Shown: positions 17,665-25,522, counted from the stretch's first letter. The stretch: DNA of 32,000 nucleotides from an uncultured archaeon (GCA_964510585.1 CAZECW010000113.1:1-32000), one strand, 5' to 3'. Translations and numbers: made by a program. Notes: generated by a model from the letters alone, not told the origin.

Positions 17665-19005
17665 TTAGAGTTTCATTTTACATATGAAAAATCCTAGCGT
17701 ATCATGCCTGTGGGGAAACAGTCTTTTCACTTTCGAAGAAAACTCGTATCCTTCATAACCTTCTGATCCCAAAATTTTGGGCCTGACAAAGGTAACCTTG
17801 TCCTTTATTGTATCCACCACTTTTTCTCCCTCCTCTGGAAAAATGGAACAGGTTGAAAACACCAATACACCATCTTTTTTTAACAGTTTAAGCATGTTTT
17901 TTAATATATCTTTTTGAATAGAGGAGTACATATTCACTTTTTCCTGATTCAGCCTCCACTTCATCTCAGGAGAGGATTGTATCACACCGCTGGAAGAACA
18001 GGGAGCGTCCACCAGAATCTTATCGTAAACCCCCTCAGAAAATTTTCTTGAATCCGCAAACTTGAGCTCCACATTCTTAACCCCAGATATTTCAAGTAGC
18101 TCCCCCATTTTCTTAAGCCGAGCTTGATTATTATCCACTGCAGTTATTAAACCAGTGTTTCTCATTTTCTGGGAAATGAAGGAAGTCTTCATCCCCGGGG
18201 CGGCGCAAGCATCCAAAATACGTTCCCCCGGTTTAGGGTCCAAAGCGTAGACCGCAGCCATACTGGCTTTATCCTGTATAATTATGTATCTATCTCTGAA
18301 TATGGGGGTTAGAGGAATGGGTGTTTCCGTCTCAACTAGTTTTAAAGCTTCCGGAAAATGTTTATCCCTTGTAACCGCGATTCCCTCTTTTTCAAGTGCT
18401 TCCACCGCTTCCTCCACGCTAAATTTTAGGGTATTAACTCTAAGCCAAATGGCCTTTTTTTGGTTATTCTTCTGCATTAATTCTATTGCCTCATCGAAGC
18501 CAAAAAGTTCTACAAACTTATCAACCAGATAAGTGGGGTGGGAATATTTGATGCTTATCTGCTCATTTTGACCTAGTCTACTTAGAGATTCTTCAAAATT
18601 AAAGGCTTTAACGTTCTTAAGAATATTCTTTACGTATTTCGCATCTTCTTTATTAACCCTATTTGCCACCAGCTTGTAAACTATGTCTTCTACGCGAATC
18701 GTGGACTCGTAGTTAAATTTCAGCTCCAAGGTGGCAATTCTAAGAATATTACGCAGAAAGGGATCCATTTCTCTATACTTTTCCTTCTTAATAAACTTGA
18801 TAAGTATATAGTCGATGCTATTTAGCCGCTTCACAGTCTCCAAAAGCAGACCATAACTGCTTGACCTAACAGCAACATCTGCAATACCAGCCTCCTCCAT
18901 CATGTTGTAGAAAATACTGCGCAGAGAGGCATTTTTTCTATTGCTCTCATACCTTGCAAGCATCTCCGCCGCCAATTCCCTACTGGTAGTCAAGGCTATC
19001 CCCAC
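17665..19005 (-). CDS. RsmB/NOP2/NSUN family RNA m5C methyltransferase with NusB-like N-terminus
   Basis: LDACAAPGMKT, LVDAPCSSSG (motif IV) and VFSTCS (motif VI). Confidence 0.95.
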   Translation of the reverse strand: MGIALTTSRELAAEMLARYESNRKNASLRSIFYNMMEEAGIADVAVRSSSYGLLLETVKRLNSIDYILIKFIKKEKYREMDPFLRNILRIATLELKFNYESTIRVEDIVYKLVANRVNKEDAKYVKNILKNVKAFNFEESLSRLGQNEQISIKYSHPTYLVDKFVELFGFDEAIELMQKNNQKKAIWLRVNTLKFSVEEAVEALEKEGIAVTRDKHFPEALKLVETETPIPLTPIFRDRYIIIQDKASMAAVYALDPKPGERILDACAAPGMKTSFISQKMRNTGLITAVDNNQARLKKMGELLEISGVKNVELKFADSRKFSEGVYDKILVDAPCSSSGVIQSSPEMKWRLNQEKVNMYSSIQKDILKNMLKLLKKDGVLVFSTCSIFPEEGEKVVDTIKDKVTFVRPKILGSEGYEGYEFSSKVKRLFPHRHDTLGFFICKMKL

Positions 19006-19063
19006 GACACAGACAATCGATTGACCCTCAAACCAACAATTTACATCAAATCGATTAAAAAGT

Positions 19064-23400: not shown

Positions 23401-24177
23401 GCTCAGCTAGTTTTCCAGTCTCCAAGTGTTGCCATAATTGGAAGCAACTATGATATAAGGTGCGTATCTATTGATAGTAATGGGAATCCTATTATGGGGA
23501 GGAGTATAAGTGTTAGTTGGAACTCGACTTATCTTGGCTCTGTGGTAACTAGTGGTTCAGGGACAATTCTGTATACTTACTTTATTGACCCCGCCAATAA
23601 TACTGAGGGCAATATTACAATTGGTTTGGCTCTGGAAGATGTTTCTTCCAATTCTGCTACAATTTTTGTTAGGCGAAGTAGCGATTTTGGAGGTTTGGCT
23701 TTTATGTTGTTGTATGCTTTGCAGATGGGTTCTGAAGCTAGTTGGCTTCTTGTCATAATTGTTTTGGCTATTATTGGTGTTGTCTGTGTGATTTATTTTG
23801 CTAGGAGAATGGCATCTAGAGAAGAGGCAAAGACAGTTACTCCCATAGATCTGCAGACTAGGCTCACTGAGCTTAAGGAGCTGGTTAATGCGGGCAAATT
23901 TAATGACGCTGTTAAGCTCCTTTACTCCATGTTTACTGATACCATTAGTCAATATTCAGGTATTACTAGGGCTCCCAATGAAACAACAAGGGAGTTTGCA
24001 TTGACGGTTATAAAGAAGGAAGGCCTCAATCCTCAGTTGGTTAACGGCCTCACTCAGGCCTTTGAGAAGGCTCGGTACAGTGATCAAACTATGGATAAGG
24101 AGGAATATAATAAGGCAGCCAAGTGCTTTGCAGAACTCTATAGTATTATTTCGGGAGGTAGTTTAAAGCTTGCCTAG
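20488..24177 (+). CDS. Large membrane-anchored transglutaminase-like protein with about six Ig-like repeats and a DUF4129-like C-terminus
   Basis: N-terminal TM, YWRLEAYNYY, catalytic triad GICVHFA / AHAWAEVW / FDPT, repeated beta-sandwich units, a second TM at about aa 1090-1110, and TRAPNETTREF...FEKARYS. An alternative start is ATG 20500. Confidence 0.9.
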   Translation: MSGNMVSRKKALIAVCLLLLLLLGLGGAYFILSFQNPYLQQGLNYFTVSNIRQIYYPWITPITITITPPDLPKRWFDNIFNISIPPNIPNMSIEIPPMELFNYGLIDPNMIMFIVQPDNASSPTRYWRLEAYNYYEMDWNKTLTGSYPYSPIGVPGSAELYTVYMNFTHSTSSSTMIPALFANYTIVNNSDYLIETLQGDLNSFDISMDQYNSTFLNGNYAGSGLSTLKYTVAGYPFDLNAISSNAGYWWQTPQYIRDVYTQRPSYLWDNTTFRNFVEGIDSGGNVFQTAMSALSLLTGGEYAYNLSILLEGGGAPQGEDPVLWFLEGKQGICVHFASAFVMALRHLEISARLVVGFVGGEITVDPQMGLVHIVRAINAHAWAEVWVPTNSGGGEWVQFDPTPGPAQNGTNPDPYVQGAYRLELNAAPPLVPRDTIITINATLTNATSGAPVSGANVAFWIVDPVTMNRYSIGSNTTDEDGFAQKTTTLNNSFRVGPIVFQAEAYNQAISNYPIATNYTGILLTGNSNIIEMSATSTAPYNGDIYNLIRNQGGVQVQGRLVDPDCENDSIRGIPNVSIEIYHNGSVSPVASGFTDNNGYFSIYYPGSSLDLTDYIFTANYSGEYLGFSITPPTSAYDPHGIIHVYVKPSLSIQVNSTVLRQNDIIAITANLKYDNETPIEGMSVSIYWDNSSIPGGSVKLINSGPTNQSGIFETTNTIWERTGLIRVFANCSQNGRILGVNSSRVNVYVYDEGLIIIDSAPSEAAIGTNIVVSGRVIGSDGNPKPNTGITIRFTGNYTSSSYQVTTNGSGYFTRSVYISSTDFTLDYYVINATSNHPYFSASSTSSIIKIYAGTVISSSGVGSQSLSPDGGVAKQNVESRSVQPSESAYITGVLMDALGNRLANQNVSVYYGSMLLNSGITNSYGVFNITLNSSALSVLPVNALSSLNISYAGDEFHSGTWNTTKLHVFNSAQLVFQSPSVAIIGSNYDIRCVSIDSNGNPIMGRSISVSWNSTYLGSVVTSGSGTILYTYFIDPANNTEGNITIGLALEDVSSNSATIFVRRSSDFGGLAFMLLYALQMGSEASWLLVIIVLAIIGVVCVIYFARRMASREEAKTVTPIDLQTRLTELKELVNAGKFNDAVKLLYSMFTDTISQYSGITRAPNETTREFALTVIKKEGLNPQLVNGLTQAFEKARYSDQTMDKEEYNKAAKCFAELYSIISGGSLKLA

Positions 24178-25522
24178 GGGCAAAATTAAAACCGCGGTTT
24201 ACATTGTGGTTTTCGTGGTTGCTTGGCTACCCCTACTTCTGCCTCTCCTTCCGAGTAGTACAGCAATGAATATACCTATTTGGGTTGATTTCTCAATCTA
24301 TAATCCGGCCTTTAATGGCTGTGAACAGTTTAGGCTGTACATGAATAGTAAAGGATATGAAGTTAAACCCCTCCTATCCTCACTAAGTGTTCTCAACAGG
24401 TATCCCAACTCAACCTGCCTAATCCTAGGGCCCTCAATAATTTACTATAATCCGGTTGAAGTATCCGAGTTGGCTAATTTCGTAAAGGGGGGTGGCGGTT
24501 TACTGATAGCCGATGATTTCGGCACAGCAGAAACACTCCTCATACAACTTTTTCCCCTACTAGGAATACCTACGCCCACCTTCACAAAACACATTCTATA
24601 TGAACCCACCGACGCTAATTTAACATCTTGGACAACAGCCCCCTTGATAACGAATTTTAATAGCAACTACACCTTCACACAAGGTATCAATCAGGTTCTG
24701 TTAAACTATGCCTGCACCATAACTAATGTTCTACCAGAAAATATGGTGGCCACCAGCTCTATTTTGAGCTGGTCTGATATGGATGACAATAAGAATATTA
24801 ATGCACCTCCTGATGTTGTTGGGCCCCAGACTGTTATTGCCGCTTATGATTTGAGTGAGATGGGGTTGGGTAGCGGCAGAATTGTTATTTTAAGCGATCC
24901 AAGTATTTTTAATGATGATATGATAAATCGAGTTGATAATCTTGTTCTTGCTGGTAATATAATTGATTGGTTGGCTCAGGGTAGGGGTGGCTCTGATTAT
25001 CCAATTATTGTGGACGAAGCTCATCTGTCTCTTCCAGTAGTATCCTACGCCAGAATATTTGGCTATATGATGGGATATGTTAACTGGGCGTCGAGTAGTT
25101 GGTTGATTGCTCCCATTTACCCCGTGCTTTTAGCTTATACTGTTTGGCGGTGGTTGCCTCGAGAGAAGAAGCCTGAACCGCTTAGTCCTACTGAAGTTTT
25201 TATGCGTAGGGGTAAAACGTTCTTTAGCGAGAAGATGAAGTGGTATACACAGTATCAACTTTATGGTAACGCGGTTAAGTTATTGTATCGCCGCTTGAAA
25301 CGTGAGCTTGTTAGGCAACTGGGCCTTAAGGAAGGTTTTAGTGTGGATGCGGCTGTTAAAGCAGCCATCTCTAAGAGTCCTACCCTTAAGGAAAAGGAAT
25401 TGAGAAAGCTTTTTGATTTATGTGAAGAAATTTCAGCAGGAAGAAAACCCCTATACATGAATAAGAATGAGTTTTTGAATATATTCTTCCAAATGCAGAG
25501 ATTATTGGAGAGTGTTAGATGA
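24170..25522 (+). CDS. DUF4350-like membrane protein
   Basis: N-terminal TM, DFSIYNPAFNG, FVKGGGGLLIADDFG, GRIVILSDPSIFND, DEAHL, C-terminal TM. The TTG start overlaps the previous stop. Confidence 0.8.
   Translation: MPRGKIKTAVYIVVFVVAWLPLLLPLLPSSTAMNIPIWVDFSIYNPAFNGCEQFRLYMNSKGYEVKPLLSSLSVLNRYPNSTCLILGPSIIYYNPVEVSELANFVKGGGGLLIADDFGTAETLLIQLFPLLGIPTPTFTKHILYEPTDANLTSWTTAPLITNFNSNYTFTQGINQVLLNYACTITNVLPENMVATSSILSWSDMDDNKNINAPPDVVGPQTVIAAYDLSEMGLGSGRIVILSDPSIFNDDMINRVDNLVLAGNIIDWLAQGRGGSDYPIIVDEAHLSLPVVSYARIFGYMMGYVNWASSSWLIAPIYPVLLAYTVWRWLPREKKPEPLSPTEVFMRRGKTFFSEKMKWYTQYQLYGNAVKLLYRRLKRELVRQLGLKEGFSVDAAVKAAISKSPTLKEKELRKLFDLCEEISAGRKPLYMNKNEFLNIFFQMQRLLESVR

What the first reader, a model, noticed from the sequence alone, without database searches (positions are those of the whole stretch)
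18700..25450. kb-scale amino (A/C) versus keto (G/T) strand-skew domains independent of gene orientation
The plus strand stays A/C-rich from about 19000 to 22400. This spans a minus-strand gene (HDAC, whose codons end mostly in T/G) and a plus-strand gene (codons ending in A/C). It flips to G/T-rich inside the 1229-aa gene (about 22700-24150), back at about 24400 and again at about 24780. Similar blocks occur at 2640-3700 and 4850-5760 (G/T) and at 7950-8640, 9600-11260 and 30100-31520 (A/C). Boundaries were estimated by eye. Neither transcription-coupled bias nor a single replication origin predicts this. It hints at a local strand-specific mutational or chromatin/replication process.
Basis: partly seen in the sequence, partly recalled or inferred. 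Interest (0 to 1): 0.65.

Follow-up and report, generated by a model that had tools for sequence, protein, structure and literature searches.

The report
Patchy one-strand A/C versus G/T skew
In this Asgard archaeon (Freyarchaeia/Jordarchaeia) the freely variable DNA positions come in patches of 0.3-3 kb that are A/C-rich or G/T-rich on one strand whatever the gene direction; the pattern is real, shared by the whole genus and unexplained, and it looks like the mark of a DNA repair or recombination process that treats the two strands differently.

Summary
After controlling for coding strand, amino-acid sequence and average codon usage, the flagged blocks deviate by 5-15 SD (one, 24400-24780, does not). 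The skew sits at third codon positions: HDAC has 68% G/T endings, and the 1229-aa gene runs from +0.5 to -0.55. The "19000-22400" domain is three A/C patches; two sharp A/C-to-G/T switches lie at 23061 and 24757.

Genome-wide, third-position skew varies four times more than chance. Neighbouring genes correlate on the plus strand even when on opposite strands (r 0.23-0.44), and spacers follow their flanks (r 0.52). Sharp switches almost all run A/C to G/T (81 v 7). The patches recur in four independent assemblies, so this is no assembly artefact. The closed relative also shows an ordinary two-replichore skew about six times weaker, so the switches are not replication origins.

Recent substitutions are biased the right way but too weakly to hold the present skew.

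Mechanism is inferred. My best guess (0.35) is DNA synthesis or heteroduplex correction that starts repeatedly at fixed points and runs outward.

The closest published analogue is GRINS, but this region is not repeated. This scan had already reported the same phenomenon several times on other pieces of this genome.

The parts
19064..20140 (-). Histone-deacetylase-family gene whose codons end mostly in G/T
   Evidence: Pfam Hist_deacetyl E=5.8e-82. Coding-strand third-position skew is -0.37 and 68.5% of codons end in G/T.
19178..19724 (.). A/C-rich patch on the plus strand, inside the minus-strand HDAC gene
   Evidence: HMM segment with mean third-position skew +0.60. The same columns read +0.52, +0.48 and +0.45 in three other genomes. 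Mean GC skew is -0.28 and mean TA skew -0.25.
19979..20946 (.). A/C-rich patch that runs through the divergent spacer and covers the 5' ends of two genes on opposite strands
   Evidence: HMM segment with mean +0.48, spanning genes on both strands. The spacer 20141-20487 reads +0.15, and +0.09 to +0.16 in relatives.
20488..24177 (+). 1229-aa transglutaminase-like/Big_1/DUF4129 gene whose silent sites run from A/C-rich to G/T-rich
   Evidence: Pfam hits at both ends of one open frame. Third-position skew runs from +0.50 to -0.55 along the gene. The profile is kept in same-genus orthologues, r=0.80-0.93 (0.88-0.93 for the four full-length ones).
21507..21792 (.). Short A/C-rich patch
   Evidence: HMM segment with mean +0.60. 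Relatives read +0.38, +0.35 and +0.19.
22389..22875 (.).
   Evidence: 40-site windows read -0.25 to -0.50. The HMM did not call it.
23061..23064 (.). Switch point, neutral or A/C to G/T
   Evidence: 50 sites to the left average +0.20 and 50 sites to the right average -0.60.
23064..24114 (.). G/T-rich patch in the 3' third of the 1229-aa gene
   Evidence: HMM mean -0.46. Relatives read -0.46, -0.42 and -0.33. Mean GC skew is +0.17 and mean TA skew +0.15.
24170..25522 (+). DUF4350 gene that carries the second switch
   Evidence: Pfam DUF4350 E=6e-17.
24757..24760 (.). Sharp A/C to G/T switch point
   Evidence: The left side averages +0.24 and the right side -0.56. The 40-site profile drops from +0.10 to -0.45.
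24760..25357 (.). G/T-rich patch that fades downstream
   Evidence: HMM mean -0.47. Relatives read -0.33, -0.46 and -0.41.
2323..5255 (.). G/T-rich block on the plus strand, which is A/C-rich on the coding strand of two minus-strand genes
8209..11272 (.). A/C-rich block over plus-strand genes, ending in a sharp switch near 11300
   Evidence: HMM mean +0.65. z=+7.0 and +14.6. The 300-nt skew goes from +0.26 to -0.33 across 11300.
16428..17090 (.). A/C to G/T switch across a convergent gene pair
   Evidence: HMM gives A/C at 16428-16665 (+0.56) and G/T at 16865-17090 (-0.53).
29759..31547 (.). A/C-rich block over the FAD-oxidase gene
   Evidence: HMM mean +0.61. Relatives read +0.57, +0.58 and +0.64. 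z=+11.2.

Best explanation
What is shown. The region is part of a genome-wide, lineage-specific mosaic. In patches with a median length of about 0.55-0.65 kb (90th percentile about 2 kb, up to 5-7 kb), one DNA strand is enriched in A and C and its partner in G and T. A<->G and C<->T choices shift together. The effect is strongest at silent codon positions but also reaches spacers and amino-acid composition. It largely ignores gene direction. It begins abruptly at fixed points and fades away from them. At nearly every sharp switch, the strand that runs 5'->3' away from the switch is the G/T-rich one.

What is inferred. DNA synthesis, or heteroduplex correction, starts again and again at these fixed points and runs outward for about 1 kb on each strand. 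This could be fill-in after a break or nick, or recombination-associated synthesis. The new strand gains G and T because G.T mispairs are the commonest polymerase error and are not corrected in this context. The same sign is seen, about six times weaker, for the leading strand of ordinary chromosome replication in the closed relative. Ordinary unbiased substitution then slowly erodes the patches between episodes.
For: DNA-level and independent of orientation:
- Adjacent genes on opposite strands correlate on the plus strand at r=+0.33 and +0.23, and at +0.37 and +0.39 in the closed relative G005.
- Covariance between sites in opposite-strand genes 0.5-1 kb apart is 0.02, against 0.024-0.034 within one gene.
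- Spacers track their flanks, r=0.52.
- 231 HMM patches span genes on opposite strands, one of them at 19979-20946.

Both transitions move together:
- CT3 and AG3 correlate at r=0.60, independent of GC3.
- At four-fold sites the composition goes from A .50 / C .37 to T .59 / G .28.
- GC and TA skew correlate at r=0.60 across 18700-25450.

Polar switches:
- A/C->G/T outnumber G/T->A/C by 81 to 7 at |step|>=1.0 and by 40 to 0 at 1.2.
- In G005 the counts are 45 to 5 and 19 to 0, against 2 and 0 after within-gene shuffling.

Persistence:
- The patch pattern of this region is kept in four assemblies.
- Across 1357 orthologue pairs with G005, r=0.57 raw and 0.73 after noise correction. The correlation below 1 means each lineage made new skew after the split.
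- It is partly kept in a sister family at 35% protein identity.

Sign of the synthesis bias:
- In G005, leading-strand genes have third-position skew of 0.02-0.03 and lagging-strand genes 0.11-0.13, so the leading strand is G/T-enriched.
- G.T mispairs outnumber C.A mispairs, and nascent leading strands gain C->T and A->G in Corynebacterium (PMC6159521).

Recombination is active in this very gene: synonymous difference is 0.41-0.49 at 21106-22336 against 0.06-0.25 in neighbouring genes.

Episodic behaviour: the substitution process since the G000/RPF2/QZM_A3 ancestor implies equilibrium A/C frequencies of 0.59 in A/C patches and 0.42 in G/T patches. The present values are 0.74 and 0.31.
Against: - No break, nick or initiation site has been shown. 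No 4-6-mer is enriched at 73 refined switch points.
- Protein identity between species is not raised or lowered at switches.
- Part of the pattern is tied to transcription units: the coding strand reaches +0.32 in the last 90 nt of unit-final genes and shows no rise at operon-internal gene ends. The model explains this only by assuming hot spots in spacers.
- In the flagged region itself the main A/C-to-G/T change (21800-23060) is gradual, not sharp.
- Recent substitutions show no runs that create skew, and the bias they carry is weak.
- NucS, the G.T-specific mismatch nuclease, is present here but also in Asgard families without the mosaic, so gene content gives no handle.
- The dynamic analysis rests on one 21-kb locus, three genomes, a two-state model and a clock assumption.
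Confidence: 0.35

Rival explanations
1. Transcription-associated asymmetry. Each patch is a sense or antisense transcription unit, and exposure of the non-template strand or transcription-coupled repair skews it. Switch points would be bidirectional promoters, some inside genes.
For: - Coding-strand skew rises along transcription units from -0.05 to +0.15, and reaches +0.32 in the last 90 nt of unit-final genes only.
- Exposure of the non-template strand on both sides of a bidirectional promoter would give the observed A/C->G/T polarity.
- There is a coding-strand baseline of about +0.07 to +0.1.
Against: - Opposite-strand neighbours correlate positively on the plus strand. Sense transcription predicts the reverse.
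- The patch at 19979-20946 runs unbroken through a divergent promoter region.
- The strongest average switch is at convergent gene ends, where no promoter is expected.
- Most coding strands are A/C-rich, the opposite of non-template deamination.
- The soil-dwelling relative shows the same mosaic, so heat-driven deamination is not needed.
Confidence: 0.17
2. Strand-asymmetric biased gene conversion. Invading single strands form heteroduplex with diverged alleles. G.T mismatches are cut or rejected by NucS/EndoMS while A.C mismatches are tolerated, so the incorporated strand gains A and C. The polarity is set by where invading 3' ends can anchor.
For: - EndoMS cleaves G/T, G/G and T/T but hardly C/C, A/C or A/A (PMC4838380).
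- NucS is encoded in this genome and in all genus and order relatives.
- GRINS-rich Streptomyces use NucS-type mismatch repair (abstracts listed).
- There is a mosaic of synonymous divergence inside the 1229-aa gene.
- A fixation bias can push silent sites to +-0.9.
- Several switches sit in conserved motifs of paralogous families, such as ABC Walker B and GTPase DxPGH.
Against: - NucS is also present in Odin-like and other Asgard families whose orthologous locus has no excess skew.
- Between-species substitutions are not at flux balance, which a steady fixation bias predicts.
- Protein identity is not raised at switches.
- The polarity argument needs several unverified assumptions.
Confidence: 0.15
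3. Selection on the nucleic acid itself. Stretches made of only A/C or only G/T cannot form Watson-Crick pairs with themselves, so either state lowers local folding of RNA or single-stranded DNA. The sign would be a self-reinforcing historical accident that descendants inherit.
For: - Both signs occur on coding strands.
- The pattern persists across species with largely re-drawn silent sites. Four-fold identity with G005 is 0.446, which I estimate leaves about 15% of sites unchanged.
- Amino-acid composition follows the skew.
Against: - A symmetric preference cannot explain why sharp switches almost all have one polarity, 81 to 7 and 45 to 5.
- It does not explain why spacers and opposite-strand neighbours share the plus-strand sign.
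- Recent substitutions erode the patches.
Confidence: 0.08
4. Many closely spaced replication origins, a small-scale version of the saw-tooth skew domains of mammalian chromosomes.
For: The sharp switches have the polarity of a replication origin, with the leading strand G/T-rich, and the skew relaxes gradually between them.
Against: - The closed relative has a classical two-replichore GC skew: positive over 0-1.65 Mb and negative over 1.75-2.8 Mb. Its authors report the same (PMC11291895).
- The replichore effect on silent sites is +-0.045, against a local SD of about 0.28.
- Plus-strand covariance vanishes beyond 2 kb. Forks from real origins would carry the bias much further.
Confidence: 0.03
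5. Artefact: wrong-strand ORF calls, amino-acid composition, chimeric assembly or contamination.
For: The genome is a 217-contig metagenome bin with 4.8% estimated contamination. My gene calls are simple ORFs.
Against: - Pfam-supported genes carry the signal.
- First-position purine content is 0.65-0.67 in all skew classes, so the ORFs are sense frames.
- The synonymous-resampling control still gives |z| of 5-15 for eight of the nine blocks.
- There are no Ns.
- The same patches occur in RPF2, QZM_A3 and the closed Freyarchaeia genome.
- An E. coli control treated the same way gives excess variance of 0.0055, against 0.04-0.12 here.
Confidence: 0.02

Closest known systems
[quoted passage not shown] 2021, PMC8256042)
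   Same: - Intense GC and TA skews that rise and fall together.
- Strongest at third codon positions.
- Both signs occur on one coding strand within 1 kb, with abrupt changes.
- Amino-acid composition shifts in the same way (Gly/Val/Cys/Trp against Pro/Thr/His/Gln).
- Mechanism unknown, with G.T-type mispairing proposed.
- Three patches of this region pass the GRINS skew threshold, with mean |GC| and |TA| above 0.15.
   Different: - GRINS are defined as repeats over 500 bp with over 80% identity to another copy in the same cluster, and are linked to gene conversion. This region has no second copy and the 1229-aa protein has no paralogue in the genome.
- Here the mosaic covers ordinary single-copy genes and spacers genome-wide, in an archaeon.
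- It ignores gene direction and has polar switch points.
Replication-associated strand asymmetry (G/T-rich leading strand; leading/lagging codon-usage split of Borrelia, Chlamydia, Lawsonia, e.g. PMC2671203, PMC2089121)
   Same: The same axis (G+T against A+C) and the same sign rule. The closed relative shows it at replichore scale.
   Different: - Scale: kb here against Mb there.
- Strength: local SD about 0.28 and patches up to +-0.9, against +-0.045.
- Hundreds of switches instead of one origin and one terminus.
Strand-coordinated 'single-switch' mutation clusters around resected double-strand breaks in yeast (Sakofsky et al. 2019, PMC6786661)
   Same: A two-armed, kb-scale footprint that is mirror-image on the two strands and centred on a point.
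   Different: - The yeast clusters run 5' C-mutated to 3' G-mutated, which is G/T then A/C on the top strand. The Freyarchaeial sharp switches run A/C then G/T.
- So damage to the exposed 3' overhang is not the cause. At most the re-synthesised strand could be.
- The yeast clusters are single events, not evolutionary equilibria.
Heavy/light-strand deamination gradients of vertebrate mitochondrial DNA (from my own knowledge, not checked here)
   Same: It is the only familiar case, as far as I know, where silent sites reach comparable amino/keto skews through both C->T and A->G on one strand.
   Different: There is one polarity for the whole molecule, tied to strand-displacement replication, with no kb-scale sign changes.

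Membership tests
GRINS (Nivina et al. 2021) | Region longer than 500 bp with mean absolute GC and TA skews above 0.15 (150-nt windows) | tested here: met
   19178-19724 gives |GC| 0.28 and |TA| 0.25. 23064-24114 gives 0.18 and 0.18. 24760-25357 gives 0.25 and 0.18. Other patches pass on one skew only.
GRINS (Nivina et al. 2021) | GC and TA skews correlated, strongest at third codon positions | tested here: met
   r=0.60 over 18700-25450. Genome-wide, CT3 and AG3 correlate at r=0.60. The SD of skew is 0.22 at position 3, against 0.08 and 0.09 at positions 1 and 2.
GRINS (Nivina et al. 2021) | Duplicated: over 80% DNA identity to another region of the same gene cluster | tested here: not met
   blastn of 18700-25450 and tblastn of the 1229-aa protein against the whole genome return only the self hit.
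GRINS (Nivina et al. 2021) | Associated with gene conversion | tested here: inconclusive
   Mosaic synonymous divergence at 21106-22336 points to allelic replacement, but its borders do not match the patch borders. There is no paralogue to convert from.
Replication-origin/terminus skew switch | Sign of the skew follows fork direction over the whole replichore | tested here: not met
   Plus-strand covariance is gone by 2 kb. The closed relative has a separate Mb-scale replichore skew of +-0.045.
Replication-origin/terminus skew switch | Origin features at the switch (Orc1/Cdc6 gene, origin recognition boxes, AT-rich unwinding element) | not tested
   The switches at 23061 and 24757 lie inside open reading frames, and no enriched k-mer was found at 73 switches. 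No dedicated search for origin boxes was run.
Transcription-coupled strand asymmetry | Sign of the skew follows the transcribed strand | tested here: not met
   For the main component, coding-strand skews of opposite-strand neighbours correlate at -0.33 and -0.23. A smaller component does follow the transcript: +0.32 at unit 3' ends.
Double-strand-break single-switch clusters (damage of resected single strands) | 5' C-mutated to 3' G-mutated order, i.e. G/T-gain then A/C-gain on the top strand | tested here: not met
   Sharp switches run A/C then G/T, 81 to 7 and 45 to 5. The yeast order is described in PMC6786661.

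The most novel reading that the evidence does not exclude
Freyarchaeial chromosomes carry hundreds of fixed points from which a strand-asymmetric DNA transaction repeatedly spreads about 1 kb in both directions. This could be error-prone outward synthesis, or heteroduplex correction that treats G.T and A.C mismatches differently. It would recode silent sites, spacers and even protein composition. 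It would be the same still-unexplained process that produces GRINS in Streptomyces, seen here without repeats and genome-wide in relatives of eukaryotes.
Probability: 0.25. Interest if true: 0.8.

Novelty: new variant of a known kind. Interest (0 to 1): 0.62.

Why it matters
- The patches are an evolutionary record of where some DNA transaction (break repair, recombination or priming) recurrently starts in an uncultured relative of eukaryotes. That gives a sequence-only map of hot spots that could be tested with metagenome reads.
- The skew is strong enough to dominate codon usage and to shift amino-acid composition. It will therefore mislead codon-adaptation, horizontal-transfer and phylogenetic-composition analyses of these genomes if ignored.
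- It may generalise GRINS, whose mechanism is open, from repeated polyketide-synthase modules to single-copy genes. It also offers a testable link to the G.T-against-A.C asymmetry of polymerase errors and NucS-type repair.

Tried and rejected
1. Amino-acid composition plus coding strand as the cause: rejected by the synonymous-resampling control, except for 24400-24780.
2. Wrong-strand ORFs: rejected by first-position purine content and Pfam hits.
3. Assembly joins or repeats: no Ns and no second copy, and the same pattern in four assemblies.
4. Periodicity: the spectrum rises smoothly towards long periods with no peak.
5. Motif at switch points: the best 4-6-mers reach p=0.009-0.06 before correction for 136-969 tests, so nothing is significant.
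6. Simple thresholded domain lengths were too noisy, with a median of 12 nt. I replaced them with a three-state HMM.
7. Raised protein conservation at switch points: not seen between G000 and G005. Motif-anchored switches do exist for ABC Walker B and GTPase DxPGH, but not for Walker A.
8. NucS presence or absence as an explanation for the lineage specificity: not diagnostic.
9. Burst-like runs of skew-creating substitutions: the longest runs are within shuffle expectation, and several of the longest lie in strongly skewed patches and run against the local skew.
10. Ribosomal-protein cluster as an expression proxy: PF00181 was not found in this genome, so I dropped it.
Its last 0.78 Mb, probably including the origin, was not examined.

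Full report
**What the window is.** The window is G000:C113:1-32000, from a 3.78-Mb, 217-contig bin with 41.7% G+C. Public titles of the closest genomes name them Candidatus Jordarchaeia / Freyarchaeota MAGs. A same-genus relative, G005, is one contig of 3,576,204 bp. That is exactly the size given for the closed wetland-soil Freyarchaeia genome in PMC11291895.

The flagged region holds these genes:
- RsmB-type methyltransferase, 17665-19005, minus strand.
- Histone-deacetylase-family gene, 19064-20140, minus strand.
- A 1229-aa transglutaminase-like/Big_1/DUF4129 gene, 20488-24177, plus strand.
- A DUF4350 gene, 24170-25522, plus strand.
- A MoxR ATPase and a DUF58/VWA gene downstream.

I redrew every synonymous codon from genome-wide usage while keeping proteins, strands and spacers. 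The blocks still deviate by |z| of 5-15. The exception is 24400-24780 (z=1.0), where amino-acid composition explains the all-site skew.

The signal is at codon position 3. HDAC reads -0.37 on its coding strand. The 1229-aa gene runs from +0.50 at its start to -0.55 near its end.

A three-state HMM on third positions resolves the region as follows:
- A/C patches at 19178-19724, 19979-20946 and 21507-21792. The second crosses the divergent spacer and covers two genes on opposite strands.
- G/T patches at 23064-24114 and 24760-25357.
- Sharp switch points at 23061/23064 and 24757/24760.

**Is it more than this locus?**
- Per-gene third-position skew has an SD of 0.22, against 0.054 expected by chance.
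- C-versus-T and A-versus-G choices move together (r=0.60) and are independent of GC3.
- Positions 1 and 2 follow position 3, so protein composition is dragged along.
- The excess variance of 50-codon windows is 0.04-0.12 here and in G005. It is 0.0055 in an E. coli control.
- At this locus it is 0.05-0.14 in the genus, 0-0.047 in the sister family and at most 0.011 in eight other Asgard genomes.

**Does it ignore gene orientation?** Largely.
- Plus-strand third-position skews of adjacent genes correlate at +0.36 (same strand), +0.33 (divergent) and +0.23 (convergent). This is robust to a sense-strand filter. G005 gives +0.44, +0.37 and +0.39.
- Site-pair covariance at 0.5-1 kb is 0.02 for opposite-strand genes, close to the 0.024-0.034 within genes. 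All covariance vanishes by about 2 kb.
- Spacer skew follows flanking silent sites (r=0.52) in all four gene arrangements.
- There is also an orientation-dependent layer. The coding strand has a baseline of about +0.07 to +0.1. The last 90 nt of unit-final genes rise to +0.32, and operon-internal gene ends show no rise.
The focal region is the informative one.

**Polarity.**
- Sharp switches (50 sites against 50 sites) are almost all A/C then G/T: 81 to 7 at a step of 1.0 and 40 to 0 at 1.2.
- G005 gives 45 to 5 and 19 to 0. Within-gene shuffling leaves 2 and 0.
- This order reads the same on both strands. The strand running 5'->3' away from the switch is always the G/T-rich one.
- Switches found in G000 are present at the same codons in G005, where the mean goes from +0.49 to -0.08.
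- Several sit in conserved motifs of paralogous families, and anchoring on ABC Walker B or GTPase DxPGH reproduces a step. Walker A shows none.
- No DNA k-mer is enriched at switches, and there is no periodicity.

**Not replication origins, not an artefact.**
- Over its first 2.8 Mb, G005 shows positive GC skew to about 1.65 Mb and negative GC skew from about 1.75 Mb. This agrees with the published statement of bidirectional replication.
- Leading-strand genes have silent-site skew of 0.02-0.03 and lagging-strand genes 0.11-0.13. That is a conventional G/T-rich leading strand of about +-0.045, some six times weaker than the local field.
- The patches of this region recur in RPF2, QZM_A3 and G005. 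For example, 23064-24114 reads -0.48, -0.46, -0.42 and -0.33, and 29759-31547 reads +0.56, +0.57, +0.58 and +0.64.

**Dynamics.**
- Across 1357 orthologue pairs with G005 (mean 75.6% protein identity), 40-codon skews correlate at 0.57 raw and 0.73 after noise correction. Four-fold sites are 44.6% identical.
- A purely decaying relic would give a noise-corrected correlation of 1. So each lineage has made new skew since the split.
- In the 1229-aa gene the profile is still recognisable in two sister-family orthologues at 35% identity (r=0.8), and absent in other Asgard families.
- I analysed 5295 synonymous sites of a 21-kb syntenic block in G000, RPF2 and QZM_A3 with a rooted two-state model:
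  - A/C patches: process equilibrium A/C frequency 0.59 [0.50-0.66], present 0.74, root 0.78, non-stationarity p=0.002.
  - G/T patches: process equilibrium 0.42, present 0.31.
- Terminal-branch counts are 110 against 54 in A/C patches and 37 against 64 in G/T patches. In A/C patches this exceeds what a stationary simulation with the same parsimony bias gives (observed fraction 0.67, expected 0.575+-0.04). In G/T patches the excess is only about 1.4 SD (0.37 against 0.44+-0.05).
- Recent substitution is therefore biased in the patch-specific direction. The per-site G/T->A/C to A/C->G/T ratio is 1.31 in A/C patches and 0.80 in G/T patches. That is too weak to sustain the present skew.
- I read this as a process that is episodic or has weakened. 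The caveat is that it rests on one locus and a simple model.
- No skew-creating runs were seen.
- Synonymous divergence is mosaic inside the 1229-aa gene: 0.41-0.49 at 21106-22336 against 0.06-0.25 nearby. So allelic replacement occurs here.

**Mechanism.** The shown facts call for a DNA-level process that biases both transitions together, acts on one strand per patch, starts at fixed points and fades over about 1 kb.

The amino/keto axis is the axis of G.T versus A.C mispairs. EndoMS/NucS cuts G/T, G/G and T/T but hardly A/C, A/A or C/C (PMC4838380). G.T mispairs outnumber C.A mispairs, and nascent leading strands gain C->T and A->G (PMC6159521).

Outward DNA synthesis from the switch point, without efficient G.T correction, gives the observed polarity. 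Fill-in after resection of a break or nick is one such case.

Damage to resected 3' overhangs gives the opposite order, as in yeast single-switch clusters (PMC6786661). I therefore reject that version.

I put the outward-synthesis reading at 0.35. The rivals are:
- Transcription-linked asymmetry, 0.17.
- NucS-type strand-asymmetric biased conversion, 0.15.
- Selection against self-pairing, 0.08.
- Many replication origins, 0.03.
- Artefact, 0.02.
- The remainder is 'something not yet thought of'.

NucS is present (G000:C187:35160-35489) but also in families without the mosaic. The soil origin of G005 argues against heat-driven deamination as the driver.

**Comparison with the known.** GRINS (PMC8256042) share these features:
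- Intense, correlated GC/TA skews.
- A third-position focus.
- Abrupt sign changes.
- The same amino-acid shifts.
- An unknown cause.

Three patches here pass the GRINS skew threshold. But the defining repeat criterion fails, and the phenomenon is genome-wide, orientation-independent and polar. In the papers I could search I found no description of such a mosaic in archaea.

**Earlier notes of this scan.** Earlier notes describe the same phenomenon on other pieces of this genome and in other archaea. I re-derived the following independently:
- The polarity of switches.
- The profile along transcription units.
- The motif anchoring.
- The GRINS comparison.

I added the following:
- The replichore calibration in the closed relative.
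- The polarity argument against overhang damage.
- The non-stationarity result.

Noticed in passing
window 21106-22336: Synonymous third-base difference between this genome and RPF2/QZM_A3 is 0.41-0.49 here. That is as high as against the far species G005. Neighbouring genes show 0.06-0.25. This looks like replacement of the middle of the 1229-aa gene by a divergent allele.
   Followed up: partly
window 20488-29271: A co-directional cluster of a transglutaminase-like/DUF4129 protein, DUF4350, a MoxR-type AAA ATPase (AAA_3), a DUF58/VWA protein and a 472-aa protein with no Pfam match.
   Followed up: no
window 16862-17596 (-): A protein that combines N-terminal zinc ribbons with a Roadblock/LC7 domain.
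   Followed up: no
whole genome G000: The Pfam model for the N-terminal domain of ribosomal protein L2 (PF00181) finds nothing in this 96%-complete bin, although it hits 13 of 14 control genomes. The gene may be split by an intron or unassembled.
   Followed up: no
G005:C1:1-2800000 (L023-L162): The closed relative has a two-replichore GC skew with a terminus-like change near 1.65-1.75 Mb. Its length matches the published closed wetland Freyarchaeia genome. So the skew mosaic also occurs in a soil-dwelling member of the genus.
   Followed up: yes
window 9777-10193 and 10064-11338: Two plus-strand ORFs overlap by 130 nt in different frames. This may be a frameshift, a mini-intron or a wrong start.
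   Followed up: no
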